From an uncultured Bacteroidales bacterium (lineage in GTDB: Bacteria > Bacteroidota > Bacteroidia > Bacteroidales > JAGOPY01): a stretch of DNA of 64,000 bases. Shown here one piece after another: positions 563 to 63,602 of this stretch. Under the pieces are notes generated by a model. That model ran no database searches, was not told the origin of the DNA, and was given only the letters and a program-made list of their open reading frames with translations. How positions within the stretch are numbered: the first letter of the stretch is position 1; the number at the start of each line of letters is the position of its first letter. The stretch is from contig CAVPBC010000002.1 in assembly GCA_963701785.1 (NCBI GenBank), positions 2,484,458 through 2,548,457 of the forward strand, given 5' to 3'. The translations under genes were made by a program, and so were the position numbers.

Positions 563-596
563 TAATTCAAAAATTAAAATTCAAAATTCAAAATTA
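563..596. repeat. AT-rich heptamer tandem array (ATTCAAA/ATTAAAA units, about 4-5 copies)
   Basis: Read directly: aattcaaaaattaaaattcaaaattcaaaatta, between the divergent DUF4301-like gene and tRNA-Leu. Confidence 0.8.
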
Positions 597-704: not shown

Positions 705-713
705 CTGTTCTTT

Positions 714-840: not shown

Positions 841-848
841 TCTAAGAT

Positions 849-6256: not shown

Positions 6257-7041
6257 TTATAAATGTATTTCACCCTTAAGATATGTCACTGCTTTACCAC
6301 CGATATCCACCCTGTCGCCATTCAGTCGGCAAAAGATTAAGCCTCCGCGGCGTGAGAGCTGTCGGGCGTTCATCTCGGTTTTTCCCAGTTTTTCCGCCCA
6401 GAATGGAATGAGGACAGTATGGGCCGAACCGGTCACCGGGTCTTCGTCAACTCCCACACGAGGCGCAAAAAAGCGGGAGACAAAGTCAACTTTGTCACCA
6501 GGCGCAGTTACAATCACGGCACGGGCATCGGTCTTTTCCAGTCTGCGGAAATCCGGGATCAATGCCTCTATTTCCTTTTGCGATTTATAGAGAAGAAGAT
6601 AGTCCTCCTTTCCCCTGTAGCATTGCAGCGGGGTAATATTTAAAGATTGCACGAAATCATCGGGCAATGCGGTTCGTCTGGGGTTTATTGCCGGGGAAAT
6701 CCAGGATGAGAAGGTCGCCTTCCCTGGTCACATTAAGCAGCCCGCTCCTGGATTCAAATGAGATTATTCTCACCGCTAAATCCAAGATCGTGAAATATGA
6801 CATGCGCTGATGCCAGGGTGGCATGACCGCAAAGATTTACTTCGACTTTCGGCGTGAACCAACGGATATGAAATCCTTCATCTTTTTTAACGAAAAATGC
6901 TGTTTCCGAGAGGTTATTTTCCATGGCTATTTTTTGCATGGTCTCATCCGGGAGCCATTGCTCCAACGGACAAACCCCGGCCGGATTGCCGCCAAAAAGC
7001 CGGTCAGTAAACGCATCAACCTGGTAGAATGGAACTAGCAT
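6257..7041 (-). CDS. PhzF-family isomerase (YddE-like), two frame breaks
   Basis: N-terminus MLVPFYQVDAFTDRLFGGNPAGVCPL...SETAFF...RWFTPKVEVNLCGHATLA and C-terminus DPVTGSAHTVLIPFWAEKLGK are typical PhzF motifs. The middle (6668-6753) reads in another frame. Confidence 0.8.
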
Positions 7042-7078
7042 TTTAATTAAAAATTAAAAATTAAAAATTATAAATTCA
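7042..7078. repeat. Heptamer array (AATTAAA x about 5) filling the whole gap between the cyclase stop and the PhzF-like start
   Basis: tttaattaaaaattaaaaattaaaaattataaattca; the cyclase stop codon (7076-7078) sits in the last degenerate unit. Confidence 0.85.
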
Positions 7079-10828: not shown

Positions 10829-10871
10829 AAATAAAATGCAAAATGAAATGAAAAATGAAAAATGAAAAATG
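10829..10871. repeat. Heptamer array (AAAATGA units, about 6 copies)
   Basis: aaataaaatgcaaaatgaaatgaaaaatgaaaaatgaaaaatg; 20 nt from the tRNA-Arg 3' end. Confidence 0.85.
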
Positions 10872-12508: not shown

Positions 12509-12552
12509 GAAATTGAAATTTGGGATTTTGATTTTGGGATTTGGAATTTTAT
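12509..12552. repeat. Heptamer array (GGGATTT / TGATTTT / GGAATTT units) abutting the OLD-nuclease stop
   Basis: gaaattgaaatttgggattttgattttgggatttggaatttta, ending at the stop codon 12553-12555. Confidence 0.8.
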
Positions 12553-14986: not shown

Positions 14987-15028
14987 CGATAGGACGATAG
15001 GACGATTGGACGATTTGAAGATTTGATG
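14987..15028. repeat. Octamer array with stepwise drift (CGATAGGA, CGATAGGA, CGATTGGA, CGATTTGA, AGATTTGA)
   Basis: Read directly; starts 9 nt after the stop at 14978 and ends 16 nt before the gmhA ATG. Confidence 0.85.
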
Positions 15029-32421: not shown

Positions 32422-34380
32422 TTACTGGACGATCATTTTCTTCGTCACTTTTCCTGCGCCGGTGTTGACCGAATAGAAATAAATGCCCCTGCTCAAGCCG
32501 TTGGCATCGATTTCAAGATCATGCATTCCTTTCGCCAGGTTGCCTATGTCAGTCGTTCTCACCAGGCTTCCTGTCAGGTTGTAAATTTCCACTGTGATAT
32601 GGGCATCCTGCAATAGATGAATCTTTATGAAGGTATTGGAAGAGAATGGATTAGGGAAATTCTGTGAAACGATTGCGGGTAGTTCGTGGTTATCTTTGAT
32701 CCCGGTAATCGTATATGACTTAACAAAATCGGGGATATAATAAAATTGTACAGGCAAAAGCGGGTCATTGTTGGTCATTTCCTCATAAACAAAAGGTATA
32801 GTGCAGGTATAGCTTGACTCAGTAACTTCCGAGAACACATAGTGGCTCATACACCCAAAAAAGGCATTCCACATGGCAGCTGACAGGAAGGTCACATTTT
32901 CAGCCGCATCCCCATGCTGGTCAAGTGTGGGCAAATATTCCCGGAAAAAAATGTCAGGCTGGCTGTTGTCTTCAATATCAGGATTTTCCGTATCGATCCA
33001 GGAGAAGAAAACGATGGCCCCGTCCATGGTTGTGGCCACCTGTGGACGGTTATACTGGGTAATCGGGGCGTCGCTGGCCCCAAATTCAGCCTGGAACCGT
33101 TTTATATTGCTCAGGTTAAAAGATCTCCAGGTTTGCCCCTGGTCGTCCGACCAGATATGGAACATGGCTATAAGGCCTTCCGATGTATATATTACGCCCT
33201 CTTCATTGTCGGCAATACATACTAAACCTACGATATGAGGGTTTCCCCATGCATCCACCGAAAGGTCACATTCATAACCCATGTAATAATCAATTTCATC
33301 CCTTGGCGGCACCGGCTCAGGATCAAAGAAGGCAATAAGCACTTCGTCAGTGATGAACTGCTGAACCTCTTCCAGCCCATCCTCGCCACCCAGCTGAACT
33401 TCAATCGGATCACTCCAGGTATCGCCACCATCGGTTGTTTTCAGCAATACGGGATGATAACTGGTATAAGGAAGTACATCAGGCAGGTTGGTCATTACGC
33501 AAATATAACCTGTCAACCCATCCGGTGAAAACGCAATCTTAATGTCATTGATCCCATCATCTGGATTAGCAATCAGCTCGAGGAGATCAAAATTGTAATT
33601 AAAATCAGAAAGGTCCGGCTCCCATATCCCGCGTCCAACAATGAGGGTGCCCTGGTAATTATACGTAGATGGGTCACCAATTGAATTCTGGTCGACCATC
33701 CAGGCTTCCCCCGCCTGGGTAATTGTAAATGCTGATGGCAGGTACTGGTAATAGGGTGGGGTGGAAGTCTTGTTATGCTGTGTAGGAGTCGAGCCATCAG
33801 CCAGTTGTTTGACGCCATATGCATACCCTCCCCAGTTAGTCCCGGACCCGGTATTACTGCCGTCAAGGGTTGGCGCAAAATAGTGGAAATAGGCATTGTC
33901 AGGATCCGTATTCCCGGCAGGATTATATAGCGCACCCTGGGGGTAACGGCCATCATAACCGTCGGGAAGCGTTGGGTCATAAGCCTGGACATTATTTTCC
34001 CAGTTCAGGCCGCCGTCCTTTGAAATATCATAAGCCAGGTAACCGGTCCCGGGAGGAATGATCATACGATGTATAAAGGATACCGAATTAATATTATTAT
34101 CGGCCCATAAATAAGTGGTCCTGAAAAAAGCGAATCCGAAGGCATTGCCCGACTGCCCTATTGCTATAGGATTTACCATGTTGAAGTCACTCATTCCTTT
34201 TAATGGACTGGCTATTTTATTTGCATTCCAGTAGGGTTTAGTAATGAAGTCTCCCGGTGCATGCCCGATATAACTGGCAGCAGGCACCTTCGGACTCAAT
34301 GGCTTAAAGATTTCTTTGCTGATCTGTGCATAGGCAGTTGTAAAACATACCATTAATGCAAATAGTAGTAGTTTTTTCAT
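32422..34380 (-). CDS. BNR/Asp-box repeat (sialidase-fold-like) protein with T9SS C-terminal sorting domain
   Basis: Signal MKKLLLFALMVCFTTAYAQ; Asp-boxes SKDGGLNWE, TTDGGDTWS, SDDQGQTWR; CTD FPNPFSSNTFIKIHLLQDAHITVEIYNLTGSLV...GIYFYSVNTGAGKVTKKMIVQ. Confidence 0.75.
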   Translation of the reverse strand: MKKLLLFALMVCFTTAYAQISKEIFKPLSPKVPAASYIGHAPGDFITKPYWNANKIASPLKGMSDFNMVNPIAIGQSGNAFGFAFFRTTYLWADNNINSVSFIHRMIIPPGTGYLAYDISKDGGLNWENNVQAYDPTLPDGYDGRYPQGALYNPAGNTDPDNAYFHYFAPTLDGSNTGSGTNWGGYAYGVKQLADGSTPTQHNKTSTPPYYQYLPSAFTITQAGEAWMVDQNSIGDPSTYNYQGTLIVGRGIWEPDLSDFNYNFDLLELIANPDDGINDIKIAFSPDGLTGYICVMTNLPDVLPYTSYHPVLLKTTDGGDTWSDPIEVQLGGEDGLEEVQQFITDEVLIAFFDPEPVPPRDEIDYYMGYECDLSVDAWGNPHIVGLVCIADNEEGVIYTSEGLIAMFHIWSDDQGQTWRSFNLSNIKRFQAEFGASDAPITQYNRPQVATTMDGAIVFFSWIDTENPDIEDNSQPDIFFREYLPTLDQHGDAAENVTFLSAAMWNAFFGCMSHYVFSEVTESSYTCTIPFVYEEMTNNDPLLPVQFYYIPDFVKSYTITGIKDNHELPAIVSQNFPNPFSSNTFIKIHLLQDAHITVEIYNLTGSLVRTTDIGNLAKGMHDLEIDANGLSRGIYFYSVNTGAGKVTKKMIVQ

Positions 34381-34525
34381 AATTGTGAGATTTAATTAGT
34401 TATCCGAAATTAACTCATAATCAAAGCAAAATATATAGGACAATCTACCAATCGCATGTTTGGATTGATTGTTCCATTGTTTCAACGTTCCAATGTCCCG
34501 GTTTCCAGATTGCATAAGCTGAATG

Positions 34526-34594
34526 CCGACCGCCGACCGCTGACCGCCGACCGCTGACCGCCGACCTCCGACCTCTGACCTCCGACCCCCGACC
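34526..34594. repeat. GC-rich heptamer array (CCGACCG drifting to CCGACCT/CCGACCC, about 10 copies)
   Basis: ccgaccgccgaccgctgaccgccgaccgctgaccgccgacctccgacctctgacctccgacccccgacc, in the divergent intergenic region between 34380 and 34689. Confidence 0.9.
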
Positions 34595-39538: not shown

Positions 39539-42500
39539 CTAATCGCTGTAAGAAATCTGCATCAGTGAAACTTCAAAATCCCCGCCTTCAGGATAGAAGG
39601 TGATCCAGTTATTATCATCGCTGAACCATTTGTACTGTGCACTGATCCTCACCACAAACTCAAAAAGGTCTTCCCCGGCAGGGACTTTTATCACCACACC
39701 GCCATTTTTTGTCTGGTCCTTGCCAAAACTGATGATGAGCTTATATTCATCTTTGGAAACATTCCGCGCCCTGAAGAATATGTAATTGCTTTTACGGTCT
39801 TTGACAGGAACGGGGATGAAATCAAATTTATGCTGTGTGTTGTTTGAGATAAGTAATGGTTCTTTATTGATCTGGACAATAGATCGTTCTGTAAGCAGTT
39901 TTAAAATGCGGCGGACCATTTCTTTGGGATATTCCTCTTCGGGCTTTAATAAGATAGAAGCCCTGTATGATTCAATGGCATTGTCATAAATTTTCGAAGC
40001 AAAGAATTTATCGGCATCGGCTATTGACTTATCATATTCTTCCTGGATCAACTGCCTTTTTTTCATAATTTGCTCATTGACCAGTTTCAGCTTATCCAGG
40101 GGATAAAGTTCTTCAGGCTTGAGTTCCAGTGCCCGGTCATATTGCAGTTTGGCCATTTCATAGTCTTGCTGATCAAAGTAATTGTCAGCTTTGGATATGG
40201 TTATCTGGTAGGTCTGATCGCGCTGTGCTTCCAGGGCATCCAGGGTACGGTTAATTTCGATTACCTGTTTATTTGGAAATTCCTCGGCAGGTTTGATGGT
40301 AAGGGCTTCCTGGTATGCTGCCCTGGCTTCTTCATATTTTTCATTTTTCATAAAATCATCCGCACTGGCAATAATTAAATTATATTGCTCATCGATTTCC
40401 TTTTGTTTCCTGATCTCTTCTTGCCGGGTTTCTTCCTGCCTGGCAATTTCTGCGATTGCAACATTTATTTCAGCAATCTTTCCCTGCGGGTAACTTTCCC
40501 CGGCCTTCAGGCCGAGGGCTGCTTGATAACCTGCCATAGCTTTCTGGTAATCCTTTGCCTGGAAAGCTAAATCGGCACCTGAGATGGCATCTCCGTATTG
40601 CTTATCGAGGGCTTCTTTAGCAGCGATCTCGCCGAGGATGCCATTGATCTCGTCGATCTTTCCCTGCGGGTAACTTTCCCCGGCCTTCAGGCCGAGGGCT
40701 GATTGATAACCTGCCATGGCTTTCTGGTAATCCTTTGCCTGGAAAGCTAAGTCGGCAGCTGAGATGGCATCTCCGTATTGCTTATCGAGGGCTTCTTTAG
40801 CAGCAATATCACCCAGGATGCCATTGATCTCGTCGATCTTTCCCTGCGGATAACTTTCCCCGGCCTTCAGGCCGAGGGCAGCTTGATAACCTGCCAAAGC
40901 TTTCTGGTAATCCTTTGCCTGGAAAGCTAAATCAGCAGCTGAGATGGCATCTCCATATTGCTTATCGAGGGCTTCTTTAGCAGCAATCTCGCCGAGGATG
41001 CCATTGATCTCGTCGATCTTTCCCTGCGGGTAACTTTCCCCGGTCTTTAGACCGAGGGCCGCTTGGTAACCTGCCATTGCTTTCTGGTAATCCTTTGCCT
41101 GGAAAGCTAAATCAGCACCTGAGATGGCATCTCCGTATTGCTTATCGAGGGCTTCTTTAGCAGCGATATCGCCGAGGATGCCATTGATCTCGTCGATCTT
41201 TCCCTGCGGGTAACTTTCTCCGGTCTTTAGGCCGAGGGCTGATTGATAACCTGCCAGGGCTTTCTGGTAATCCTTTGCCTGGAAAGCCAAATCGGCAGCT
41301 GAGATGGCATCTCCGTATTGCTTATCGAGGGCTTCTTTAGCAGCGATATCGCCGAGGATGCCATTGATCTCGTCGATCTTTCCCTGCGGGTAACTTTCCC
41401 CGGTCTTTAGGCCGAGGGCCGCTTGGTAACCTGCCATGGCCTTCTGGTAATCCTTTGCCTGGAAAGCTAAGTCGGCACTTGAGATGGCATCTCCGTATTG
41501 CTTATCGAGGGCTTCCTTAGCAGCGATATCACCGAAAATGCCATTGATCTCGTCGATCTTTCCCTGCGGATAACTTTCCCCGGCCTTCAATCCGAGGGCC
41601 GCTTGATAACCTGCCAGGGCCTTCTGGTAATCCTTTGCCTGGAAAGCTAAGTCGGCAATTGAGATGGCATCTCCATATTGCTTATCGAGTGCTTCATTAG
41701 CTGCGATTTCTCCGAGGATACCATTGATCTCGTCGATCTTTCTTTGCGCGTAACTTTCCCCGGCCTTCAGGCCGAGGGCAACTTGATAACCTGCTAAAGC
41801 TTCCTGGTAATTTTTGGATTGCATGGCCAGGTCTGCAACCGAGATGGCATCCAGATATTGGGTATTTTTAACTTCCAGAGCTGCCTGTTCAACGGAATCA
41901 TTATCGATTTCGAAAACCTTTTCCGCCTGGTAAGCGGCTATACCTTCCTGGTATTCCTGCTTGGTGATGGCATTCTCCTCCCCGGCAATCTCATCCCGGT
42001 TTTTACCGCCACTTGCCTGTTTACTGGCATTTGTTGCAAGAATAGTTTCGATCTCCTGGATCTTCTGCTGGGGATATTTCTCTTCAGGATTGATCCCGGC
42101 GGCATTGCGGAATTCAATCAGTGCAGCCTCATAGTCCCTGTCATACATTAGCTGATCGGCATTTGTGACAGCTTTTACATATTTATCCCGGATCCCTAAA
42201 ATTTCGTTGATCATAGTGATCTGGTCAAGCGGATATTGCTCCTTCGGGAATAATGCACTTGCAGACCGGTATTGCTCGCGGGCTTCCACATATTCATCGG
42301 AGAAAAACAGGCGGTCGGCCCCTGTGATAAGGTTATTATATACTTCTCTATTGCCGGCCAGGTTCGATAATATCGTATTGATCTCATCAACCTTAACTTT
42401 CGGATACTGTTCCAGCGATTTGATCCCTATCGACCTGTTGTATTCATCTCGTGCTTCTTCGTAACGTTCTTCCTTAAAAAGGTTATCTGCCCGGGCAATA

Positions 42501-43636
42501 GCCTGTGTATATGCATCTTCCTGTGTCTTTCTCAGGCTGAGCGCTACATTGATATCGTTGATCCGCTGTTTTGCGTAATCTTCTTCAGGTTTAAAATGCA
42601 GGGCATTCTTATATTCGATCATCGCCCGTTCATAGTCCTGCTCGCTGAACAGCTTGTCGGCAAGGGCAATGGTAACTTCATAACTTGACCTGTTGGATTT
42701 GGAAATGTCCATCAGGGCAATGTCTATTTTTTCAAGCATGCTTTTCGGATATTCATCAGCAGGCTTGATAGACTGGGCCTGCAGGTATTTCTCCTGCGCC
42801 AGCTCAAATTCTTTCGATATATAATAATTATCCGCTTCTTCAATGATGGAGGCATAAGAATCCCAGGCAATTTTGAGATCCTGCGCCTCTGCAAGTTTCT
42901 GTTTCGGCAGATTTTCATCAGGCTTGAGCAGAATGGCCGCTTCCAGCAACCTGATGGCATCGTCATATTTATTTCTCGAAATAGCAAAATCGGCATCCTG
43001 AAGTAAGGATTCATAATTACTCGTTGCTGTATTACTTGCCGTTAATAATGTTTGGACCTGAATTGTTTTCTCTTTCGGGTATGCTTCTACAGGTTTAAGT
43101 TTGGCTGCGTTTTGATATTCAGCCAGTGCATTTTCCAGTTGTAAACCTTTCAGGAACAAATCGCCATTAATGATGCTCTTCTGGTATTTTTCCTCCAGGA
43201 GCCTGTTATCTTCCTGGGTCCTGGTTATCTCCTGCACCCGTCCGGTAGCATAGGCATCGTTTGGAATTATCGTCAATGCTTCCTGGTAAACCTTCAAAGC
43301 AGCATCAAGATCTTTCTTATCATACAGGTCATCTGCAAGCTGGACCTTCTGGGTGTAAAGGCTGTTTTGATACATCTGGACCTTGATCATGTCAAGGGAT
43401 TGCTGCAGGCGGTCCTTTGGATATTGATCTTCAGGCGCAAGCCGGACAGCAATCTGGTAAGAAGCTTTGGCGTTGATGTAATCCCCTTTTGTAAAGTAAG
43501 CGTCGGCCATTTCGATGGTCTTCCTGTATTCTTCAGGATTGTCCTGGGACTGTCCTGTAAAGGCAAAAAAAGCCAGCAAGATCAGCGATAAGAGCACCGT
43601 CTTATGTCGATAGGTCATATGTAGTTTTAGTAGCAT
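39539..43636 (-). CDS. Giant TPR-like repeat protein (about 20 units of a roughly 60-aa motif ending E.YP..KI.EIN..L) with a distinct about 130-aa C-terminal domain
   Basis: Signal/TM TVLLSLILLAFFAFTGQSQ (start may be Met at 43618). Repeat motif recurs along the protein; eight central units are near-identical. C-terminal domain of unknown family. Confidence 0.7.
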   Translation of the reverse strand: MLLKLHMTYRHKTVLLSLILLAFFAFTGQSQDNPEEYRKTIEMADAYFTKGDYINAKASYQIAVRLAPEDQYPKDRLQQSLDMIKVQMYQNSLYTQKVQLADDLYDKKDLDAALKVYQEALTIIPNDAYATGRVQEITRTQEDNRLLEEKYQKSIINGDLFLKGLQLENALAEYQNAAKLKPVEAYPKEKTIQVQTLLTASNTATSNYESLLQDADFAISRNKYDDAIRLLEAAILLKPDENLPKQKLAEAQDLKIAWDSYASIIEEADNYYISKEFELAQEKYLQAQSIKPADEYPKSMLEKIDIALMDISKSNRSSYEVTIALADKLFSEQDYERAMIEYKNALHFKPEEDYAKQRINDINVALSLRKTQEDAYTQAIARADNLFKEERYEEARDEYNRSIGIKSLEQYPKVKVDEINTILSNLAGNREVYNNLITGADRLFFSDEYVEAREQYRSASALFPKEQYPLDQITMINEILGIRDKYVKAVTNADQLMYDRDYEAALIEFRNAAGINPEEKYPQQKIQEIETILATNASKQASGGKNRDEIAGEENAITKQEYQEGIAAYQAEKVFEIDNDSVEQAALEVKNTQYLDAISVADLAMQSKNYQEALAGYQVALGLKAGESYAQRKIDEINGILGEIAANEALDKQYGDAISIADLAFQAKDYQKALAGYQAALGLKAGESYPQGKIDEINGIFGDIAAKEALDKQYGDAISSADLAFQAKDYQKAMAGYQAALGLKTGESYPQGKIDEINGILGDIAAKEALDKQYGDAISAADLAFQAKDYQKALAGYQSALGLKTGESYPQGKIDEINGILGDIAAKEALDKQYGDAISGADLAFQAKDYQKAMAGYQAALGLKTGESYPQGKIDEINGILGEIAAKEALDKQYGDAISAADLAFQAKDYQKALAGYQAALGLKAGESYPQGKIDEINGILGDIAAKEALDKQYGDAISAADLAFQAKDYQKAMAGYQSALGLKAGESYPQGKIDEINGILGEIAAKEALDKQYGDAISGADLAFQAKDYQKAMAGYQAALGLKAGESYPQGKIAEINVAIAEIARQEETRQEEIRKQKEIDEQYNLIIASADDFMKNEKYEEARAAYQEALTIKPAEEFPNKQVIEINRTLDALEAQRDQTYQITISKADNYFDQQDYEMAKLQYDRALELKPEELYPLDKLKLVNEQIMKKRQLIQEEYDKSIADADKFFASKIYDNAIESYRASILLKPEEEYPKEMVRRILKLLTERSIVQINKEPLLISNNTQHKFDFIPVPVKDRKSNYIFFRARNVSKDEYKLIISFGKDQTKNGGVVIKVPAGEDLFEFVVRISAQYKWFSDDNNWITFYPEGGDFEVSLMQISYSD
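40470..41870. repeat. Eight in-phase 180-bp tandem repeats (60-aa units) inside the TPR-like gene
   Basis: The motif cggccttcaggccgagggc recurs at 40501, 40681, 40861, 41041, 41221, 41401, 41581 and 41761. One adjacent pair I compared by eye had 12 mismatches in 180. Confidence 0.95.
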
Positions 43637-44488: not shown

Positions 44489-45822
44489 CTATTCATCCCG
44501 CAGACAGCGAACGATGAAACCGAAAACCTCGTCGTAGTTGCAGTCGTTTCGGTAAACTTCCGGGCCGGAGTAATCGAGGCCACGGTACCACGCTTCATTG
44601 TCGAGCGCCGTCGAAGTCCACCAGAAGCTGGTGAAGCCAACACCGTCGAAGTAACCCCTGTAGTCGCGGTAGCCACCCGGCATACCTGAGAAACCAAACA
44701 GGTCGGTGCCATTGCCGTTCCCGTACCATCCGCTGGTGGTCTTCAGGTTCGTCCCGGCATCATAGCCACGCCAATCCCAACCGTTGCCCCATTCCGGATC
44801 ACCGATTCCGTATTGGCTGTCCACCGCCCCCTCCAGCACTTTCCACTCCTCATCGGTGGGAAGGTGCCAGCCCGGTGGGCAGATGCCCTGGGTGCCTGGT
44901 TGAGTGGTGTATTGCATCATTTCGTTCCACTGGTAAAGGCCGCCGTATTTTTCGCAACTATCAGGCTCGTTGTTGTAACAGTACTTCTCAATGGTTCCAT
45001 TGTTCGATTGTCCCATTGTTCCAGGGATCATTTCGCCCACATTGAGATTTTCCTTTAGCCAGCACTGGCTGAAGATCTGGATGGTGTTGTACACCTGTCC
45101 TTCGTATTCCACCGTAGGTGTTCCCGGGCAGGGGATGTTGGTGGCGAACTGAAAAGTGTAGTTGGTGCTTTCCTCCGGGGAGTCCGGCATGCCGGATTGT
45201 AGGGTGTCTGTATAACCGATATACAGCAGTTCATCCCCCAGGCTGAAGGAGAAATCCTGGATATCCTTCAATGCCTTAAGCTGTGGGAAATAAGCCTCAC
45301 TACCGGTGTATTCAAGCGAGCGGTCCCACCTGAATGAAATCCTGCCTGCAGGATCTTGATACTGCTGCTCTGTCCCTGCCAATGGGCAGTGAAAAAACAC
45401 AGGTTTTCGGCACCTGGAGTGAAGCGGAAGGTGTGCTTTCCTCTATCCAACACTCTTTCAGTCTGAATCATCATTCGTCCCAGGATATCGGTCACGGTGA
45501 TGCTAACTTTTTCCTTCTCAGGAACATACAGCGATACGGTCGTCTGGTCGGCCACCGGATTGGGGTAATTCTGAAATACCTGGAACGCGCTCAGGTTTTC
45601 CGGAATTTCAGGAATCCCCACATAATAGATCGACAGCACCGTATCGGGATAATACAAGATTGTATCTCCTCCCTGGGTGCGGTTCATAATTTTAATGCTG
45701 TCGAGCTTTATGTAAGCAGTGCTGTTAACAGCGGTAAAACTCAGTTCCAGTGTGGTACGCTGTGAAAATAATCCCAACGAAACGAATGCAAAAGATGCCA
45801 TAAGGAATAATTTCTTTGACAT
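44489..45822 (-). CDS. FISUMP-domain protein with an N-proximal T9SS-CTD-like beta-sandwich; one frame break near 45360
   Basis: Signal MSKKLFLMASFAFVSLGLFSQ; NYPNPVADQTTVSLYVPEKEKVSITVTDILGRMM is CTD-like but internal. C-terminal CWLKENLNVG...GGLYQWNEMM...CPPGWHLPTDEEW...GFSGMPGGYR...FWWTST is the Fibrobacter paralogous (FISUMP) pattern. Confidence 0.7.
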
Positions 45823-48024: not shown

Positions 48025-48067
48025 CATTTCACATTGAGCATTGAACTCAGAACTCAGAACTCAGAAC
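48024..48067. repeat. Heptamer array with drift (ACATTTC, ACATTGA, GCATTGA, ACTCAGA x3) filling the convergent pcm/dnaB gap
   Basis: acatttcacattgagcattgaactcagaactcagaactcagaac; begins at the last base of the pcm stop and contains the dnaB stop (48061-48063). Confidence 0.85.
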
Positions 48068-49561: not shown

Positions 49562-49742
49562 AGCCTTTTGACTTATCTGACGGGTTGTATCGGGTGTTAT
49601 TTTCCATGCCTCAAATATATGAAATACTGACCCGGATTATCTCCCGTAACCCCTTAACTTATCACCAAAATTGATGTTAATAAGTCGTGAAAAAAAAGAA
49701 AAAAACATGTATTACCGGCACATCTGATACTAACTAAGTCAT

Positions 49743-49791
49743 GACTAATGACCAATGACCAATGACTAATGACCAATGACTAATAACCAAT
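49743..49791. repeat. Heptamer array GACTAAT/GACCAAT x7
   Basis: gactaatgaccaatgaccaatgactaatgaccaatgactaataaccaat; encodes the last codons and the stop (49780-49782) of the minus-strand gene. Confidence 0.9.
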
Positions 49792-50868
49792 CACCTCCCC
49801 ATCCAGGGTCACGTATCCCTTCATCAGATTTGCCGTCAGGCAGGAGTGAACAGGCAGGACACCAAGTATGTCCCCGATCTTGATTTCTTCGATGAACTCC
49901 CTTGGGGCGCGCACGATACCATGTTCCTGCGAGAGATTGGCCAGGTAGGCCCCCGCGATCGGGCGTGACCATTCTTTTTCGGAAATGCGCACTATATAGC
50001 CGAACAGGTGCTCCCCGTTACTCTTATATAGGAAATCTTTTGAGAAATGAATAGCCCCCCCGTAAATCGTAAGTTCGTTACGCAGCAGGCTTTTCCCGAC
50101 AACCGGGCAGGCTACCGCAACAGCGATCTGATCCAGTGTGCATGATCCGAGCGAGAATTGCATCAGGTCATAGAAAACAAAATTGCCGGGCCTGATCTCA
50201 TCAACGGCTGAGAAATCTTCAACAAGGCTGCAACCTGGCGTATCCCCGACGGATATGGTCAGTTCAGGCCAGGCCTCCAGGTAACGCTCCTTGAGGTAGG
50301 TCATTTTTTCGACAGTATCTTTATAAATATCGAGGATCTCCTCCTGGCTGTCGGCCGAATAAGTATGCCCGGAATGGGTAAGGAAGCCTTTGAAATTCAA
50401 CCGGTTAGAACTGGCAAGAAATTCAAGCATCCGGTCAATTTCATTCAGGTCTTTCCAGAGTACGCCTGAACGGTGATGGCCGGTGTCAATTTCTATATAA
50501 AAACCGACTTTGAAGGTTAAGCCATTCTCGACCGATTGCAGTATCGTCGAAGTATCTCCAAGAATATTCAGGTTAAGTTCCGCTGCCAGCTCGCTGATCT
50601 GTCCCAACTCGGCAAGGTTAACCGGGAATGCGATCGTGATATCGCGCCAGCCATAAGCGGAAAAAAATTTGGCCATACTGACTGAAGAAACCGTAATACT
50701 GTGAATGCCAAGCTTACGGAACCAGTTACCGACGAATGCAGAATTATGAGTCTTGAAATGCGGCCTGAAATGCGTATCGCTTTTTTTGGCCTTTTCGTAC
50801 ATCCTGGAAATATTCGATAAACACTGCTCTTTATTCAGAAGAAGTGTTGGTTTTGTTATACTGATCAT
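49780..50868 (-). CDS. D-threonine aldolase / D-serine dehydratase-like (alanine racemase N-terminal fold) PLP enzyme
   Basis: Start chosen at MISITKPTLLLNKEQ; RPHFKTHNS contains the PLP-lysine context of the DSD1/D-TA family; about 362 aa. Confidence 0.65.
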   Translation of the reverse strand: MISITKPTLLLNKEQCLSNISRMYEKAKKSDTHFRPHFKTHNSAFVGNWFRKLGIHSITVSSVSMAKFFSAYGWRDITIAFPVNLAELGQISELAAELNLNILGDTSTILQSVENGLTFKVGFYIEIDTGHHRSGVLWKDLNEIDRMLEFLASSNRLNFKGFLTHSGHTYSADSQEEILDIYKDTVEKMTYLKERYLEAWPELTISVGDTPGCSLVEDFSAVDEIRPGNFVFYDLMQFSLGSCTLDQIAVAVACPVVGKSLLRNELTIYGGAIHFSKDFLYKSNGEHLFGYIVRISEKEWSRPIAGAYLANLSQEHGIVRAPREFIEEIKIGDILGVLPVHSCLTANLMKGYVTLDGEVIGY

Positions 50869-59423: not shown

Positions 59424-59460
59424 TCTATTTCAACATTCAACATTCAACATTCAACATTAT
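59424..59460. repeat. Heptamer array (CAACATT x4 plus degenerate flanks) abutting the PspC-domain gene stop
   Basis: tctatttcaacattcaacattcaacattcaacattat; the stop codon 59457-59459 overlaps the last unit. Confidence 0.9.
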
Positions 59461-61040
59461 TTTCTTACAAGCCCCTCATTCGTCATGATGAACAACGTCC
59501 CGATCTTTTCACGGCGTGAAATATTTTTATGATATCCCATGAAAGGATGAAGATGGTCATCAAGACTTACAGCAATTCCTTCAGGAAGCTGCACCTCAAC
59601 GCGTGCTTCCTGTTTTCTCCATTTATCATCTTCTGGCACGACGAAACTGTCGGACAACAAAAGGGTGTCGTTTTTCATCTGCCAGTCATAGTTTATTCTC
59701 TCAGCTCTCTCCGTAGCCTCGTCTACAAATGCTCCCCTGGCCGCTGTAACAATTATCATCCGTGCCAGGCTGTCTTTACTGGGCTTGAATTTTAGCAGTG
59801 GAATACCGTAAAGCACGTTTTTATCATTGGTAACAGCCGTTCTCATTTCCGGGAAATAGAATACCCCGGACCTCTCCCATTCGAAATCTTCAGGGAGACT
59901 GCGGTCTACTTTGACATGTAATGTATCATGACTGATGACCTGCAAAATTGATTCCCTGCTGAATTCTCCGGGCACCCGAAATGAGTTGGCAACTTTAAAC
60001 CCGAATACCAGCGTGATAACCAGGGCGCAGAGCCAGATTATGCCAGCTATCCCGTTGATGAATTTTGCCCGCGGAAGGTTAAAGATAAGCCGGATACCGG
60101 CCCAAAGCATCATAAGCAAGGGTATCCCCGCAAGAACCATCATGCCTGTGGCAAAGGTGCGTAAATCGGCATCATTGCCAAAAATCCTCTCTGTGACTGA
60201 ATAAAGCGGGAATGCCTGCAGGCCGGCATCTTCCATCATTGCAACTACCGGGAAGCGGAATAATATCGACAGGTAAGCTATTGTTAAGGCAATACCCACC
60301 AGCAGGATCAAAATCCCCACGAAAATAAGCAGGATTCTCAGCAGCACTCTCCCAACTTCACCGAGACTATCGAGGAACTGGTCCCGATGATTGCTTTTAA
60401 ATTCCTCTTTCTGTGTCCGGTAGGTTGCCTTTGCCTTCGATGTGAAGTCGCTGATCTTATTTTTAATCTGATGCACCTCCTCACCTATTGATTTCTCGAT
60501 ATTGGAAATGTTGACCGGTTCTCCTTTCATTTCGAGCCTTTCGGCAGTAGTGCGTGCTTCCGGGACAACCAGCCAGAGGATCAGGTATACCAATACTCCG
60601 AACCCGGATATCAGAATGGAAATAATGAAAATGACCCTTACCCAAACCGGGTCCATGTTGAAGTAGGCACCCAGGCCGCTGCAAACCCCTCCGATCACTT
60701 TCCTTTCGGGATCCCGATAAAGCCTTTTCGGCATGCTGGCATAGGAGGGCTCATTCCCGCTTCCGGCGGATTCATCATCCATGGCAAAATCAGCCGGCTG
60801 ACCCAATATGGCAATCACTTCAGCGATGTCATCAATGGTAATTACTTCTTTACTGCCTGAGATCTTTTTTTGCAGGAGCTCGGCTATCCTGGCTTCAACA
60901 TCCGAGATCACTTCCTCTTTTCCTTCAAAGCCCCTGAAATGAGATTTGATGGCTTCAAGATAACGGTGAAGTTTTTCATAAGCATCCTCTTCAATATGGA
61001 AGACGAACCCGCTGATGCTGATTGTTAAGGTCTTTTTCAT
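59457..61040 (-). CDS. PspC-domain membrane protein (527 aa)
   Basis: RLYRDPERKVIGGVCSGLGAYFNMDPVWVRVIFIISILISGFGVLVYLILWLVVP is the PspC domain; further TM helices and a C-terminal extracytoplasmic region. Confidence 0.85.
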   Translation of the reverse strand: MKKTLTISISGFVFHIEEDAYEKLHRYLEAIKSHFRGFEGKEEVISDVEARIAELLQKKISGSKEVITIDDIAEVIAILGQPADFAMDDESAGSGNEPSYASMPKRLYRDPERKVIGGVCSGLGAYFNMDPVWVRVIFIISILISGFGVLVYLILWLVVPEARTTAERLEMKGEPVNISNIEKSIGEEVHQIKNKISDFTSKAKATYRTQKEEFKSNHRDQFLDSLGEVGRVLLRILLIFVGILILLVGIALTIAYLSILFRFPVVAMMEDAGLQAFPLYSVTERIFGNDADLRTFATGMMVLAGIPLLMMLWAGIRLIFNLPRAKFINGIAGIIWLCALVITLVFGFKVANSFRVPGEFSRESILQVISHDTLHVKVDRSLPEDFEWERSGVFYFPEMRTAVTNDKNVLYGIPLLKFKPSKDSLARMIIVTAARGAFVDEATERAERINYDWQMKNDTLLLSDSFVVPEDDKWRKQEARVEVQLPEGIAVSLDDHLHPFMGYHKNISRREKIGTLFIMTNEGLVRK

Positions 61041-61150
61041 TATATTGATATATTGTTAAATTGTTAGATTGTTATATTGTTCCAGTGTTCGTCTTCCACG
61101 TCCCATCAGTCTCCCAGTCTTCCAGTCTTACAGTCGTTACAGTCGTAGCG
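61041..61150. repeat. About 14-unit octamer array that morphs from TATATTGT to CAGTCTTC/CAGTCGTT, bridging the PadR stop and the PspC start
   Basis: tatattga tatattgt taaattgt tagattgt tatattgt tccagtgt tcgtcttc cacgtccc atcagtct cccagtct tccagtct tacagtcg ttacagtcg tagcggtc. Confidence 0.8.
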
Positions 61151-61480
61151 GTCTATCCCTTCAAGCAATCTCTCCACAGACTCCACCAATTCTGCCCAGT
61201 CCCGGGCCATACCGTCCAGCGCTTTCTGTCCGGATTCGGTTATACGGTAATACTTTCTGGGTGGTCCCTGGGTCGACTCTTCCCAGCGATAACTCAACAG
61301 GCCTTCGTTTTTCAACCTTGTAAGCAATGGATAGAGTGTTCCTTCGACAACGATCAGCTTTGCTTCTTTCAGTTTCTCAATGATGTTGGACGCATAAGCG
61401 TCTTCTTTCGAAACAATGGAAAGAATGCACAATTCGAGTACACCTTTCCGCATCTGGGCATTATTTCTTTCAAGATCCAT
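61106..61480 (-). CDS. PadR-family transcriptional regulator
   Basis: Start chosen at MDLERNNAQMRKG; LELCILSIVSKEDAYASNIIEKL...GTLYPLLTRLKNEGLLSYRWEES is the PadR winged helix. The last about 14 aa (RYDCNDCKTGRLGD) are encoded by the tandem array. Confidence 0.85.
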   Translation of the reverse strand: MDLERNNAQMRKGVLELCILSIVSKEDAYASNIIEKLKEAKLIVVEGTLYPLLTRLKNEGLLSYRWEESTQGPPRKYYRITESGQKALDGMARDWAELVESVERLLEGIDRYDCNDCKTGRLGD

Positions 61481-61576
61481 GATGCAAATATAATACATAT
61501 TTTAGTACTATGCAATACCATAGTACTAAATATTTTTAAATATTTTTAAAAATTTTGCTGTTTCCTTTGTTTTACT

Positions 61577-61613: not shown

Positions 61614-63554
61614 ATGATAAACATCACATTTCCCGATCATTCGGTCAGGCAATTCCAGAAAGGGGTCACCGGGCTGGAAATTGCCCAGAGCATTTCAGAA
61701 GGGCTGGCGAGAAATGTGCTGGCGGCCAAAGTAAATGGCGAAGTCTGGGATGCAACGCGTCCCATTCATCAAGATTCGACACTCCAGTTGCTTACCTGGA
61801 ATGATACCGAAGGCAAGGCCACCGTATGGCATTCATCAGCACACCTGATGGCCGAAGCGATCGAACAGCTTTATCCCGGTGTGAAATTTGGCATCGGACC
61901 TGATATTGAAAATGGTTTTTATTACGATATCGATTTCCTGGATTATAAAATTTCAGAAGAAGACCTGAAGAAGATAGAGGAACGGATGCTGGCACTTGCA
62001 CGTGAAAAGCAGGTGTACAGGCGCCGGGAAGTTTCAAAAAACGATGCCCTTGATTATTTCACCAAAAAAGGCGATCCATATAAGATTGAACTTATTTCAG
62101 GCTTAAATGACGGCGAGATCACATTTTACGAATCAGGTACTTTCACCGACCTTTGCCGCGGGCCGCATATTCCCGATACTGGATTCATTAAAGCTGTCAA
62201 ACTGCTGAACATTGCCGGCGCTTACTGGCGTGGCGATGAGAAACGCCAGATGCTGACCCGTATTTATGGCATCACTTTCCCGAAACAAAAAGAACTTGAT
62301 GAATACCTTATTTTCCTGGAAGAAGCCAAAAAGCGCGATCACCGTACTTTAGGCAGGGAACTTGAGCTTTTCACATTTTCCCAGAAAGTAGGAGCAGGGC
62401 TGCCGCTCTGGCTTCCCAAAGGAGCCGAACTGCGGGAAAGGCTGGAGCAGTTCCTGAAGAAGGTCCAGCGCAAGGCCGGTTATGTTCAGGTCATTACCCC
62501 TCACATCGGAAATGTGGAACTATACCGCACTTCCGGCCACCTGGCCAAATACGGGAAAGATTCTTTCCAGCCGATCAATACACCTATTGAAGGGGAGCAG
62601 TTTTTCCTTAAACCGATGAACTGCCCGCATCATTGTGAAATATATAAGAGCAAGCCGAAATCATATAAAGATTTACCTCTGCGCATTGCCGAATTCGGAC
62701 CGTTTACCGTTATGAACAAAGCGGTGAGCTCCACGGACTGACACGGGTGCGTGGGTTTACCCAGGATGATGCCCATATTTTCTGCACCCCGGAACAGGTA
62801 AAAGATGAATTTAAAGGGGTGATCGATATCGTTATGCTGATCTTTAAAGCGCTGGATTTTAAAGATTTTACCACCCAGATTTCCTGCGTGACCCAGATAA
62901 CAAGGAAAAATATATCGGCTCTGATGAAAACTGGGAAAAAGCGCAGCAGGCGATCATTGAAGTCGCGCAGGAAAGCGGGCTTGAACTATGTGATCGTGGA
63001 AGGCGAAGCGGCTTTTTACGGCCCCAAGATGGACTTTATGGTCCGGGATGCCATTGGCCGGAAGTGGCAGCTTGGCACCATCCAGGTTGATTATAACCTG
63101 CCGGAACGGTTTGAAATGGAATATACCGGCAGTGACAATGAAAAACACCGCCCGATCATGATCCATCGGGCGCCGTTTGGTTCGATGGAACGCTTTGTCG
63201 CCGTGTTGCTGGAGCATTGCGCAGGAAATTTCCCGCTGTGGCTGACGCCTGATCAGGCAATAATACTGCCGATCAGCGACAAATTTCTGGATTATGCAAA
63301 AAATGTTATACATTTGCTGAAAAATTCCGAAATTCGCGCCCTCGTTGATGAACGCAGTGAAAAAACCGGCCGGAAGATCAGGGATGCGGAAATCAGGAAA
63401 ATACCCTACATGCTGATTGTAGGTGAAAAAGAAGAGGCAACCGGCTCAGTTTCAGTTAGAAAACATGGAGCAGGGTGATCTTGGGACTTTTTCAATTGAT
63501 GAATTTATCAGCCTGGTAAAAAATGAAGTTGAAGAATCATTGAAGGATCTTTGA
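61614..63554 (+). CDS. thrS: Threonyl-tRNA synthetase, about four frame breaks (62741, a compensated pair at about 62885-62985, and 63470)
   Basis: TGS domain [24 protein letters not shown], editing-domain [17 protein letters not shown], class II core [10 protein letters not shown] / [11 protein letters not shown] / [12 protein letters not shown] / [14 protein letters not shown], anticodon-binding tail ending ...EVEESLKDL. Confidence 0.9.
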
Positions 63555-63602
63555 TGGTTTTTAGATTATATAATGTTTAATTAAAATACAGGAGGAATAC
63601 TT

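What the first reader, a model, noticed from the sequence alone, without database searches (positions are those of the whole stretch)
61041..61150. 110-bp morphing octamer array bridges the PadR stop and the PspC start and encodes the PadR C-terminal tail
About 14 consecutive 8-9 bp units run without interruption from the base after the PspC-domain gene ATG (61040) into the PadR coding region. The sequence drifts gradually: TATATTGA, TATATTGT, TAAATTGT, TAGATTGT, TATATTGT, TCCAGTGT ... CCCAGTCT, TCCAGTCT, TACAGTCG, TTACAGTCG. The PadR stop (61106-61108) and its last ~14 residues (RYDCNDCKTGRLGD) are array sequence. The AT-rich half occupies the entire PadR-PspC intergenic gap, including any ribosome-loading region for the downstream gene. 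Unit gain or loss would change both the PadR tail and the coupling between regulator and target gene.
Basis: seen in the sequence. Interest (0 to 1): 0.6.

Follow-up and report, generated by a model that had tools for sequence, protein, structure and literature searches.

The report
Short tandem repeats between padR and pspC
The stretch between a PadR regulator gene and its partner PspC membrane-sensor gene is filled by two adjoining arrays of 8-9-base tandem repeats, one local case of a repeat habit found all over this Bacteroidales genome and its relatives; the repeats supply the regulator's stop codon and a disordered tail and stretch a normally tight operon junction, with no known function.

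Summary
On the minus (coding) strand, 61153-61040 holds 14 head-to-tail units. Eight GAC-phased 8-9-mers (array A, 61153-61088) encode PadR residues 116-130 and its TGA stop. Six octamers of the form CAnTnnAA (array B, 61087-61040) end on the A of the pspC ATG. Lag-8 identity is 0.61; none of 5000 shuffles exceeded 0.50.

It is not a one-off. The 64-kb window holds 15 period-7/8 arrays, against about 0.03 per shuffle. 76% of array bases are non-coding and most arrays abut gene ends.

In 143 other Bacteroidota loci the padR-pspC gap has a median of 22 nt and no arrays. Close relatives (PspC N-terminus at least 73% identical, plus further PadR homologues) have gaps of 54-147 nt. Tandem arrays of varying unit, period and copy number fill the 11 array-bearing gaps read here; two relatives carry a GC-rich hairpin instead of array A. 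PadR tails differ accordingly, and AlphaFold predicts the window's tail to be disordered.

Array B units recur, sense-oriented and next to the start codon, at infC-rpmI junctions.

Best reading: slippage-driven STRR/LSSR-like dispersed repeats; the tail is a by-product and array B serves as an A-rich leader (inferred). This is a new member of a known, functionally unexplained kind. Caveat: the assembly shows indels elsewhere.

The parts
61088..61153 (-). Array A: eight GAC-phased units read 5'->3' on the minus strand (GACCGCTAC, GACTGTAAC, GACTGTAA, GACTGGAA, GACTGGGA, GACTGATGG, GACGTGGAA, GACGAA). It is purine-rich on the sense strand. It encodes PadR residues 116-130 (DRYDCNDCKTGRLGD) and the TGA stop, then runs 18 nt into the gap.
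   Evidence: Sequence. TRF core 61107-61144, period 8, 4.6 copies, 90% matches. Orthologous nnnAAGAC / nnGGAGAC octamer arrays sit at the same place in L001, L003, L004, L088, L091, L107 and L171.
61040..61087 (-). Array B: six octamers of the form CAnTnnAA (CACTGGAA, CAATATAA, CAATCTAA, CAATTTAA, CAATATAT, CAATATAA). It is A-rich, and its last A is the A of the pspC ATG.
   Evidence: TRF 61040-81, period 8, 5.2 copies, score 63; lag-8 identity 0.88. Pattern (CANTNNAA)x3 gives 10 hits in the window against 0.19 expected. The same family lies directly upstream of the ATG in relatives and at infC-rpmI junctions.
61106..61108 (-). PadR stop codon TGA, inside an array A unit (GACTGATGG).
   Evidence: In relatives the stop is the TAA/TAG of a TAAGACnn / TAGGACnn unit.
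61106..61480 (-). padR gene (PadR-like winged helix, PF03551). The likely true start is the ATG at 61480 (MDLERNN..., 124 aa). The mechanical ORF extends to 61498.
   Evidence: Pfam E=2.8e-20. P0001 (124 aa) is the deposited product. L004 lacks the upstream ATG. AlphaFold gives pLDDT below 50 for residues 1-11 and 117-130.
59457..61040 (-). Gene for a HAAS(weak)-PspC-LiaI/LiaF-TM-Toastrack membrane protein, the conserved partner of the PadR gene.
   Evidence: Pfam PF04024, PF22571 and PF22744; HAAS E=0.003, below the cut-off. The pair is adjacent in all 153 junctions analysed.
59429..59458 (-). Heptamer array (TGTTGAA x4.3 on the sense strand) starting on the pspC stop codon. It is a second array site in the same operon.
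   Evidence: TRF 100% matches, score 60. Heptamer arrays follow the pspC stop in L004, L169 and L171, and one overlaps the pspC 3' end in L088. PspC C-terminal tails differ between close relatives.
61503..61528 (-). Palindrome TAGTACTATG-GTATTG-CATAGTACTA upstream of padR, the probable PadR operator. It shows that the arrays are not needed as the regulator's binding site.
   Evidence: Sequence. Conserved in L001, L003, L004 and L088. The operator role is inferred.

Best explanation
The feature is two adjoining short-unit tandem repeat arrays of the STRR / long-simple-sequence-repeat kind. They belong to a dispersed family that populates gene boundaries in one Bacteroidales lineage.

Shown:
- The arrays are statistically real.
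- 15 such period-7/8 arrays lie in 64 kb, mostly non-coding and abutting gene ends.
- The padR-pspC junction is short (median 22 nt) and non-repetitive across Bacteroidota. It is expanded to 54-147 nt in this clade, and tandem arrays fill the 11 array-bearing clade gaps read here (55-147 nt).
- Unit sequence, period and copy number turn over between relatives.
- The PadR tail changes with them and is predicted to be disordered.

Inferred mechanism:
- Replication slippage, plus occasional copying between arrays at different loci, creates and remodels the units.
- Arrays expand through whatever sequence is unconstrained until they meet constrained sequence. They therefore fill the spacer and swallow the dispensable 3' end of padR.
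- The period is not a multiple of 3 and units carry TAA/TAG/TGA, so a stop is met within a few units in every frame. Slippage therefore only produces a short junk tail.
- Near the pspC ATG, only A-rich, weakly structured units are tolerated, as Shine-Dalgarno-less Bacteroidota initiation requires. This produces the G-rich to A-rich 'morphing'.

The net effect on the operon is a longer intercistronic spacer and a variable PadR tail, probably with little phenotypic consequence.
For: Statistics: TRF arrays. Lag-8 identity is 0.61, against a shuffle maximum of 0.495.

Genome-wide habit: 15 period-7/8 arrays against about 0.03 per dinucleotide shuffle. 76% of array bases are non-coding although the window is 84% coding. 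9 of 15 arrays end within 15 nt of an ORF end, against 9.7% of random segments; three more flank tRNA genes.

Lineage specificity: the outgroup gap has a median of 22 nt (IQR 8-39, n=143) and no arrays. The clade gaps are 54-147 nt and, except in L090 and L168, filled with arrays.

Turnover:
- L003 and L088 (95.7% identical in DNA) differ by one unit.
- L089 has heptamers TTAGTCA/TTCTGTA instead.
- L091 has period 8 followed by period 7.
- The window has a 19-nt array insertion relative to L088, and all indels between the two lie in arrays or intergenic DNA.

Tail dispensability: the conserved PadR sequence ends at ...VERLL and tails vary. Residues 117-130 have pLDDT below 50. Stops occur in all three frames before the ATG.

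Arrays also lie between convergent genes and next to tRNAs. This fits a mutational process better than a role specific to translation.

Literature:
- Heptamer-rich LSSR have been attributed to polymerase slippage (Mrazek 2007, as summarised in PMC4679880).
- Intergenic heptamer repeats are reported in Beggiatoaceae, cyanobacteria and Bacteroidetes (PMC4679880).
- G-rich heptamers occur between aligned ORFs near stop codons (PMC4692102).
- Bacteroidetes initiation depends on low structure and upstream adenines (PMC6847099).
Against: - The units are not arbitrary. 7 of 12 window arrays outside this locus share their exact unit with arrays at non-homologous loci in other genomes (null 1.35; 0 of 2000 shuffles reached 7).
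- Array B keeps C1, A2, T4, A7 and A8 nearly invariant across 73 units.
- All long copies found outside coding sequence are sense-oriented 0-31 nt upstream of a start codon, at two different operon junctions.
- The same G-rich, then CACTGGAA, then CAATAGAA order recurs at padR-pspC and infC-rpmI in one genome.

Pure neutral slippage does not predict these regularities. They need inter-locus copying, sequence-dependent slippage or selection.

The 'unstructured leader' idea is not uniform either. The window junction is less structured than 95% of shuffles (z +1.5). L004 is more structured (z -2.5), and L168 and L090 carry a strong hairpin (-55 kcal/mol in L168) in place of array A.
Confidence: 0.6

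Rival explanations
1. Array B, and perhaps array A, is a sequence-specific periodic cis-element. Invariant AACAnT blocks every 8 nt on the mRNA (or on single-stranded DNA) would be bound cooperatively by a multi-domain or oligomerising nucleic-acid-binding protein (S1-, Csp-, RRM- or KH-like). That protein would set the translation rate of the downstream cistron (pspC, rpmI). Copy number would tune occupancy.
For: - Limited shared unit vocabulary across genomes.
- Position-specific conservation within units.
- Sense orientation 0-31 nt from the ATG at padR-pspC in all array-bearing clade members, and at infC-rpmI in L001 and L169.
- About 90% identity between the two L169 junction arrays.
- (CANTNNAA)x3 is 50-fold over-represented in the window.
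- MacGregor (PMC4679880) proposed the same idea for TAACTGA repeats upstream of start codons.
Against: - No binder has been identified.
- The conservation logo is partly circular, because units were collected with the pattern.
- L089 has unrelated T-rich heptamers at the same place, and copy number and total length are unconstrained.
- Other arrays of the same genome sit at stop codons of convergent genes, by tRNAs, or inside a coding region.
- Inter-locus gene conversion could explain the shared units without any function.
Confidence: 0.2
2. The arrays form a contingency (phase-variation) locus. Frequent gain or loss of 8-nt units would switch PadR function or pspC expression between states within a population.
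For: - The unit length is not a multiple of three and part of the array is coding.
- Close relatives differ in unit number and in PadR tail.
Against: - The array lies after the last conserved helix. Every frame stops within about 26 codons or fewer, before the pspC ATG, and the tail is predicted to be disordered. Slippage therefore cannot switch PadR off.
- No promoter-like Bacteroidetes -7 box (TAnnTTTG) was seen in the gap by inspection, so spacing changes have no obvious on/off target.
- Similar arrays flank tRNA and ribosomal-protein genes, which are not typical contingency genes.
Confidence: 0.05
3. The junction is a structural RNA/DNA element between the two cistrons, such as a G-quadruplex, hairpin, attenuator or transcript-stabilising structure. 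The arrays would be one way of building it.
For: - In L168 and L090 array A is replaced by a GC-rich inverted repeat. In L168 it folds at -55 kcal/mol, z = -5.7.
- Inverted heptamer arrays between the two tRNA-Leu genes form a hairpin of -44.9 kcal/mol, z = -9.7.
- G-rich heptamer repeats near stop codons between aligned ORFs form G4 structures in Xanthomonas and Nostoc (PMC4692102).
- Array A is G-rich in L169 and L171.
Against: - The window's junction RNA is less structured than 191 of 200 shuffles (z +1.5).
- Its G-runs are only 2-3 long and irregular.
- Structure scores differ in sign between relatives.
- Direct repeats of non-palindromic units cannot self-pair.
Confidence: 0.08
4. The feature is an assembly artefact or a chance low-complexity stretch.
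For: The window's assembly carries apparent single-base indels. thrS has four relative to L001, and a PhzF-like gene is truncated. The exact unit lengths (the 9-mers) and the exact tail could therefore be wrong.
Against: - The periodicity is far beyond shuffles.
- Independent metagenome and genome assemblies from different samples (12 distinct junction sequences read here) carry tandem arrays, or in L090 and L168 a hairpin, at the same junction.
- padR, pspC and the 5' part of thrS show no coding indels relative to L088.
Confidence: 0.02

Closest known systems
Long simple sequence repeats with 5-11-nt units (LSSR; Mrazek et al. 2007, as summarised in PMC4679880)
   Same: - Head-to-tail arrays of 7-8-nt units, longer than chance allows.
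- Many arrays per genome, sporadic phylogenetic distribution, mostly non-coding.
- 7-mers are the commonest class (10 of 15 arrays in the window).
- Slippage is the proposed origin.
   Different: - Here the period at the focal site is 8-9 nt.
- Units belong to a small vocabulary shared between loci and genomes.
- Arrays occur as ordered composites: G-rich units, then CACTGGAA, then CAATnnAA.
Intergenic TAACTGA heptamer direct repeats of Beggiatoaceae, cyanobacteria and five Bacteroidetes (MacGregor 2015, PMC4679880)
   Same: - Short direct repeats, forward-oriented, within a few nucleotides upstream of start codons, including ribosomal-protein operons.
- The same unit recurs across distant genomes.
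- Stop codons occur in the forward orientation.
- No function has been demonstrated.
   Different: - No TAACTGA tandem copy is present in the window.
- Units here are octamers of other sequence.
- The arrays also overlap a gene's 3' end and encode its tail.
Cyanobacterial STRR heptamers (STRR1-3; unit sequences recalled from memory of Mazel et al. 1990, not checked; general description in PMC2670836)
   Same: - A dispersed family of tandem 7-bp repeats in intergenic regions between co-transcribed genes.
- Function unknown.
- Some form hairpins when inverted copies are adjacent, as at window 715-840.
- The window's 49741-49795 array (ATGACCA) is the TTGGTCA unit by rotation and strand.
   Different: The host phylum is different. 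The focal arrays are octamers with different units.
G-rich GGGNATC heptamer repeats of Xanthomonas and Nostoc (Rehm et al. 2015, PMC4692102)
   Same: - Preferentially located between aligned ORFs.
[quoted passage not shown]
- Copy number is variable.
   Different: - Array A has short, irregular G-runs and no preference for four units.
- G-quadruplex formation was not tested and is unlikely for the window's copy.
Phase-variable SSR contingency loci of host-adapted pathogens (e.g. Moraxella uspA2 AGAT repeats in a 5'UTR, cited in PMC4679880)
   Same: [quoted passage not shown]
   Different: - Units there are 1-5 nt.
- The focal arrays cannot switch either gene off.
- Arrays here are at housekeeping junctions as well.

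Membership tests
LSSR / STRR-like short tandem repeats | Head-to-tail copies of a 5-11-nt unit, longer than expected by chance in that genome | tested here: met
   TRF scores 63 and 46. Lag-8 identity is 0.61 against a shuffle maximum of 0.495. Only 1 short-period array was found in 30 whole-window shuffles.
LSSR / STRR-like short tandem repeats | Many arrays dispersed over the genome, mainly non-coding | tested here: met
   15 arrays in 64 kb. 76% of array bases are non-coding although the window is 84% coding. Only this window and about 20-kb pieces of relatives were examined, not whole genomes.
LSSR / STRR-like short tandem repeats | Copy number varies between related strains or species | tested here: met
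   L003 and L088 (95.7% identical) differ by one unit. The window has a 19-nt array insertion relative to L088. Gaps range from 54 to 147 nt across the clade.
LSSR / STRR-like short tandem repeats | Length heterogeneity within one population (ongoing slippage) | not testable with these tools
   No reads are available. The exact PspC and PadR products occur on a single contig only.
TAACTGA direct-repeat family (MacGregor 2015) | Unit is TAACTGA in tandem | tested here: not met
   Four singleton TAACTGA and no tandem doublet in the window.
TAACTGA direct-repeat family (MacGregor 2015) | Forward orientation within a few nucleotides upstream of a start codon | tested here: met
   Array B ends on the pspC ATG. 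The same family lies 0-31 nt upstream of the ATG, in sense orientation, in relatives and at infC-rpmI. This is a functional resemblance only.
Phase-variable contingency locus | A repeat-number change switches a gene on or off, through a frameshift early in the ORF or through promoter spacing | tested here: not met
   The array starts after the conserved C-terminal helix. All three frames stop before the pspC ATG. No -7 box was seen in the gap by inspection.
G-quadruplex-forming heptamer repeats (Rehm 2015) | Four or more regularly spaced G-tracts of at least 3 G | tested here: not met
   The window's array A has GG/GGG runs at irregular spacing.
HAAS-PadR-like wHTH dyad with PspC/Toastrack (Ravi et al. 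2024, PMC11237479), the host operon | [quoted passage not shown] | tested here: met
   PF03551, PF04024, PF22571 and PF22744 are above their cut-offs. HAAS is only E=0.003, below its cut-off. Adjacency holds in all 153 junctions analysed.

The most novel reading that the evidence does not exclude
The CAnTnnAA octamers (invariant AACAnT every 8 nt) would be a lineage-specific, copy-number-tunable translation-initiation or regulatory module. A composite cassette (G-rich array, then CACTGGAA, then CAATnnAA, then ATG) would be copied between operon junctions such as padR-pspC and infC-rpmI. An as yet unidentified RNA- or ssDNA-binding protein would read it in 8-nt register. This would give the long-unexplained STRR-type repeats a concrete function in bacteria without Shine-Dalgarno sequences. 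A minor add-on is that repeat expansion has created a C-terminal CxxC motif (DCNDC) on this PadR, which could confer redox or metal sensitivity.
Probability: 0.15. Interest if true: 0.7.

Novelty: new member of a known kind. Interest (0 to 1): 0.4.

Why it matters
Short 7-8-nt tandem repeats at gene boundaries have been known since 1990 in cyanobacteria, and later in Beggiatoaceae, Xanthomonas and a few Bacteroidetes, without an established function.

This locus gives a clean comparative series. The gene pair is conserved in 153 analysed Bacteroidota junctions, with an ordinary short gap everywhere except in one clade. There, arrays have expanded the gap, turned over in unit, period and copy number, and rewritten the C-terminus of a transcription factor.

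It therefore shows how such repeats reshape operon junctions and protein ends. The recurrence of the same units, in the same order and orientation, at unrelated junctions offers a testable handle on whether they are merely tolerated slippage products or cis-elements.

For annotation, it warns that PadR (and PspC) C-terminal tails in this lineage are repeat-derived and that their length is assembly-sensitive.

Tried and rejected
- **Genome-contig scan with the PadR alignment.** The source organism was therefore not identified and no close genome was obtained. The loci were still useful as an outgroup.
- **Exact look-up of the deposited PadR product.** It found no contig, so there is no second assembly of the same strain and no test of polymorphism.
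- **'Unstructured spacer' as a uniform property.** Rejected. The z-score is +1.5 in the window, -2.5 in L004 and -5.7 in L168.
- **Internal promoter for pspC in the gap.** No TAnnTTTG box was seen by inspection. The sigma-70 scan tool was not used because it does not cover Bacteroidota promoters.
- **ECF-sigma -35 resemblance of the GGAAC / TGAAAC units.** Considered and dropped. No -10 partner was found, and the same units occur at infC-rpmI.
- **Arrays as PadR operators.** Rejected. A conserved palindrome upstream of padR fits that role.
- **TAACTGA and STRR1/STRR3 units.** Absent as tandems.
- **One continuous 'morphing' array.** Replaced by two array families, because L091 has period 8 followed by period 7 and L089 has two different heptamers.
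- **Rfam and covariance models.** Not run. Direct repeats with no conserved pairing gave no reason to spend those calls.

Full report
**Observation**

Both genes lie on the minus strand. padR (PF03551, E=2.8e-20) is ORF 61106-61498. [quoted passage not shown] The two are separated by 65 nt.

Tandem Repeats Finder reports two period-8 arrays:
- 61040-61081: TTATATTG x5.2, 85% matches, score 63.
- 61107-61144: CAGTCTTA x4.6, 90% matches, score 46.

In 5000 dinucleotide shuffles the lag-8 mean was 0.28, and the best value at any lag from 4 to 24 was 0.495. The central 25 nt (61082-61106) are not periodic at lag 8 (identity 0.18).

Read on the coding strand, the anatomy is as follows.
- **Array A, 61153 to 61088.** Eight GAC-phased units: GACCGCTAC, GACTGTAAC, GACTGTAA, GACTGGAA, GACTGGGA, GACTGATGG, GACGTGGAA, GACGAA.
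- **Array B, 61087 to 61040.** Six octamers: CACTGGAA, CAATATAA, CAATCTAA, CAATTTAA, CAATATAT, CAATATAA. The final A is the A of the pspC ATG.

Array A encodes PadR residues 116-130 (DRYDCNDCKTGRLGD) and the TGA stop. Two refinements apply: there are two adjoining array families, and the AT-rich family does not fill the whole gap.

**Genome-wide context**

The window contains 15 separate period-7 or period-8 arrays, whereas 30 dinucleotide shuffles of the window gave one in total.
- 76% of array bases lie outside ATG-ORFs of at least 100 aa, although 84% of the window is inside such ORFs.
- 9 of 15 arrays end within 15 nt of an ORF end, against 9.7% of random 40-nt segments.
- Three more arrays flank tRNA genes.
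- One array starts on the pspC stop codon (59429-59458).

Units differ from array to array and often drift along an array. Examples are GCCGACC drifting to TCTGACC at 34525, and CGATAGGA drifting to CGATTTGA at 14987. The focal arrays are thus one instance of a genome-wide habit.

**Comparative evidence**

PadR homologues share sequence up to ...VERLL and then diverge into short, unrelated tails.
- The closest tails are KGKTLRL, EGKTLRR and EEKTGRL.
- The window reads EG-IDRYDCNDC-KTGRLGD.
- A third type is STPTPVSPPPIGGGD.

AlphaFold2 with this alignment ends the C-terminal helix at residue 117. It gives pLDDT below 50 for residues 117-130 and for residues 1-11.

I extracted the padR-stop to pspC-ATG junction from 153 loci, taken from genome and metagenome scans.
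- In 143 outgroup loci (PspC N-terminus 31-64% identical), the gap has a median of 22 nt (IQR 8-39) and shows no tandem arrays.
- In close relatives (PspC N-terminus at least 73% identical: L001, L003, L004, L088, L089, L090, L091, L097, L107, plus L168; further PadR-homologue loci L169 and L171), the gap is 54-147 nt.
- L092 (67% identical) starts too close to pspC to show padR. It nevertheless carries array B units 8 nt upstream of the pspC ATG.

Tandem arrays occupy the gap in eight of the ten clade relatives with a fully read junction. They begin in the last four to six PadR codons.
- Array A is typically nnnAAGAC, nnGGAGAC or GGACnnnn. Its TAA or TAG provides the PadR stop.
- Array B is of the form CAnTnnAA and runs up to the ATG.

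There is much turnover:
- L107 has ATGGAACA x7.
- L091 has TGGAATT x5, a heptamer.
- L089 has heptamers TTAGTCA and TTCTGTA throughout.
- L169 has AGGTTGTG and GTGGTGTA octamers as array A.

L003 and L088, which are 95.7% identical in DNA, differ by one array B unit. The window differs from L088 (91% identical) by indels only in arrays and intergenic DNA, including a 19-nt insertion in array A.

In L168 and L090, array A is replaced by a GC-rich inverted repeat. In L168 it folds at -55 kcal/mol with z = -5.7.

**A shared vocabulary**

Units are not arbitrary. 7 of 12 window arrays outside this locus have exactly the same canonical unit as an array at a non-homologous locus in another Bacteroidota genome. 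Composition-matched shuffles give 1.35 on average, and none of 2000 reached 7.

The pattern (CANTNNAA)x3 with at most 2 mismatches occurs 10 times in the window against 0.19 expected. The hits fall at three places:
- The focal site.
- 34464-34495, next to a (GGTCGGC)x10 array.
- 44987-45026, where three octamers (24 nt) sit in frame inside a Fib_succ_major-domain gene.

Across all loci, long copies of this family lie in sense orientation 0-31 nt upstream of the ATG. This holds at padR-pspC, and at the infC-rpmI junction of L001 and L169.

In L169 the two junctions share the succession AGGTTTTG-type units, then CACTGGAA, then CAATAGAA, then ATG. They align at about 90% identity over about 60 nt.

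In 73 units, positions C1, A2, T4, A7 and A8 are nearly invariant while positions 3, 5 and 6 vary. This logo is partly circular because the pattern was used to collect units.

**Mechanism**

*Shown.* The arrays are real, lineage-specific, dispersed and fast-evolving. They have lengthened a normally tight operon junction and changed the PadR C-terminus.

*Inferred.* Replication slippage, with some copying between arrays, generates and remodels units. This is the origin proposed for 5-11-nt LSSR, among which heptamers dominate (Mrazek 2007, as summarised in PMC4679880).

Arrays expand through unconstrained sequence until they meet constraint. This explains why they abut gene ends and why they have absorbed the dispensable end of padR.

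The period is not a multiple of three and units carry stop triplets. All three frames therefore close before the pspC ATG, so slippage can only create a short tail.

The G/A-rich to A-rich gradient fits two boundary conditions: a stop-containing unit at the padR end, and an A-rich leader at the pspC end. The window has A at -3. Bacteroidetes lack Shine-Dalgarno-dependent initiation; initiation there is tuned by low structure and upstream adenines (PMC6847099).

The unstructured-RNA idea is only partly borne out:
- The window has z +1.5, with 191 of 200 shuffles folding at least as well.
- L004 has z -2.5.
- L168 has a strong hairpin.

The vocabulary, orientation and order regularities are not predicted by neutral slippage. 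They keep alive the rival that array B is a periodic binding element, as MacGregor proposed for TAACTGA repeats (PMC4679880).

A phase-variation role is unlikely because neither gene can be switched off. An artefact is excluded because independent assemblies carry arrays at the same junction.

**Host operon**

[quoted passage not shown] (PMC11237479). The HAAS match itself falls below the Pfam cut-off.

A conserved palindrome, TAGTACTATG-GTATTG-CATAGTACTA (61503-61528), and a TATATTTG box (61485-61492) lie upstream of padR. These make the arrays unnecessary as operator sites.

**Caveats**

- The window's thrS carries four single-base indels relative to L001.
- A PhzF-like ORF is truncated.

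The assembly therefore either has indel errors or the strain carries pseudogenes. padR, pspC and the 5' part of thrS show no coding indels relative to L088. Even so, the exact unit lengths, and therefore the exact PadR tail, need read-level confirmation.

The source organism was not identified. Relatives are labelled as uncultured Bacteroidales MAGs, and Por_Secre_tail domains confirm Bacteroidota.

**Verdict**

The feature is a new member of the known, functionally unexplained class of dispersed short tandem repeats (LSSR, STRR, TAACTGA-like). It comes with an unusually clear comparative series and an intriguing shared unit vocabulary. Interest is moderate (0.4).

Noticed in passing
window 564-595, 715-753, 794-840, 7045-7076, 10833-10871, 12509-12549, 14987-15023, 24713-24766, 34525-34594, 44994-45023, 48043-48067, 49741-49795, 59429-59458: Thirteen further period-7/8 tandem arrays lie in the window, mostly at gene boundaries, each with its own unit. 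Together with the two focal arrays this gives 15, against about 0.03 expected per shuffle.
   Followed up: partly
window 706-848 (between tRNA-Leu 621-705 and tRNA-Leu 849-933): Two heptamer arrays in inverted orientation, (AATGTTT)x5.6 and (CATTAAA = AAACATT)x6.7, fill the spacer between two tRNA-Leu genes. Together they fold into a long hairpin (-44.9 kcal/mol, z = -9.7). This may be a processing or terminator structure built from repeats.
   Followed up: partly
window 61614-63555 (thrS): The threonyl-tRNA synthetase gene is broken by four single-base indels (near 62698, 62883, 62984 and 63469) relative to the intact orthologue in L001. This indicates either assembly indel errors or a pseudogene. 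The PhzF-like ORF 6754-7041 is also truncated (84 of 281 profile positions).
   Followed up: partly
window 61485-61528, minus strand: A conserved palindrome, TAGTACTATG-GTATTG-CATAGTACTA (61503-61528), lies upstream of a perfect Bacteroidetes-type -7 box, TATATTTG (61485-61492). The box ends 4 nt before the ATG at 61480. This suggests an autoregulated and possibly leaderless padR transcript, and it means the upstream ATG (61498, MYYICI) lies inside the promoter. L004 lacks that upstream ATG.
   Followed up: partly
window 61527-61556: A decamer repeat, TAAATATTTT x3, lies just upstream of the padR palindrome. An AAAATATTTA-type repeat is conserved at the same place in L088, L091, L097, L107 and L168.
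   Followed up: no
window 34464-34594, minus strand: A composite of (GGTCGGC)x10 followed by TGGAAC-type octamers (CATTGGAA, CGTTGAAA, CAATGGAA) lies about 85 nt upstream of a T9SS-tailed protein gene (32422-34380). It shows the same order, G-rich array then CAnTGGAA array, as at operon junctions.
   Followed up: partly
window 44987-45026, minus strand: Three octamers of the array B family (24 nt, in frame) lie inside a Fib_succ_major-domain gene and encode ...GTMGQSNNGT.... This looks like an in-frame repeat insertion in a coding region.
   Followed up: partly
window 24713-24766: (GGGGAGGC)x6.8 lies within the first 60 codons of the mechanical ORF 24590-26305 (FG-GAP / Por_Secre_tail protein). 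It is G-quadruplex-capable on paper, and the true start codon may lie downstream of the array.
   Followed up: no
window 40476-41811: A 180-nt unit repeated 7.4 times at 92% identity lies inside a 1365-aa TPR-rich ORF (39539-43636, minus strand). These are recently amplified 60-aa protein repeats.
   Followed up: no
L168 670-735 and L090 (padR 3' end): In two relatives the octamer array A is replaced by a GC-rich inverted repeat (CCACCCC...TCCCCTCCCCCAATTGGGGGAGGGGA...GGGGTGG). In L168 it folds at -55 kcal/mol. It is translated as the PadR tail STPTPVSPPPIGGGD. It may itself be an inverted pair of G-rich repeat units.
   Followed up: partly
L001 148-342 and L169 7236-7333 (infC-rpmI junction): The spacer between infC and rpmI (126 nt in L169, about 220 nt in L001) is filled by three or four successive octamer arrays in these relatives. 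L171 has only about 27 nt there. The window ends before this junction.
   Followed up: partly
L096, L114-L119, L124, L145, L161, L134, L139, L146, L060, L063 (about 0.5-1 kb upstream of pspC): A different set of more distant Bacteroidota loci carries AAAACAG / AAAAACAG / AAAACAAG arrays at an apparently conserved position upstream of the padR-pspC pair.
   Followed up: no
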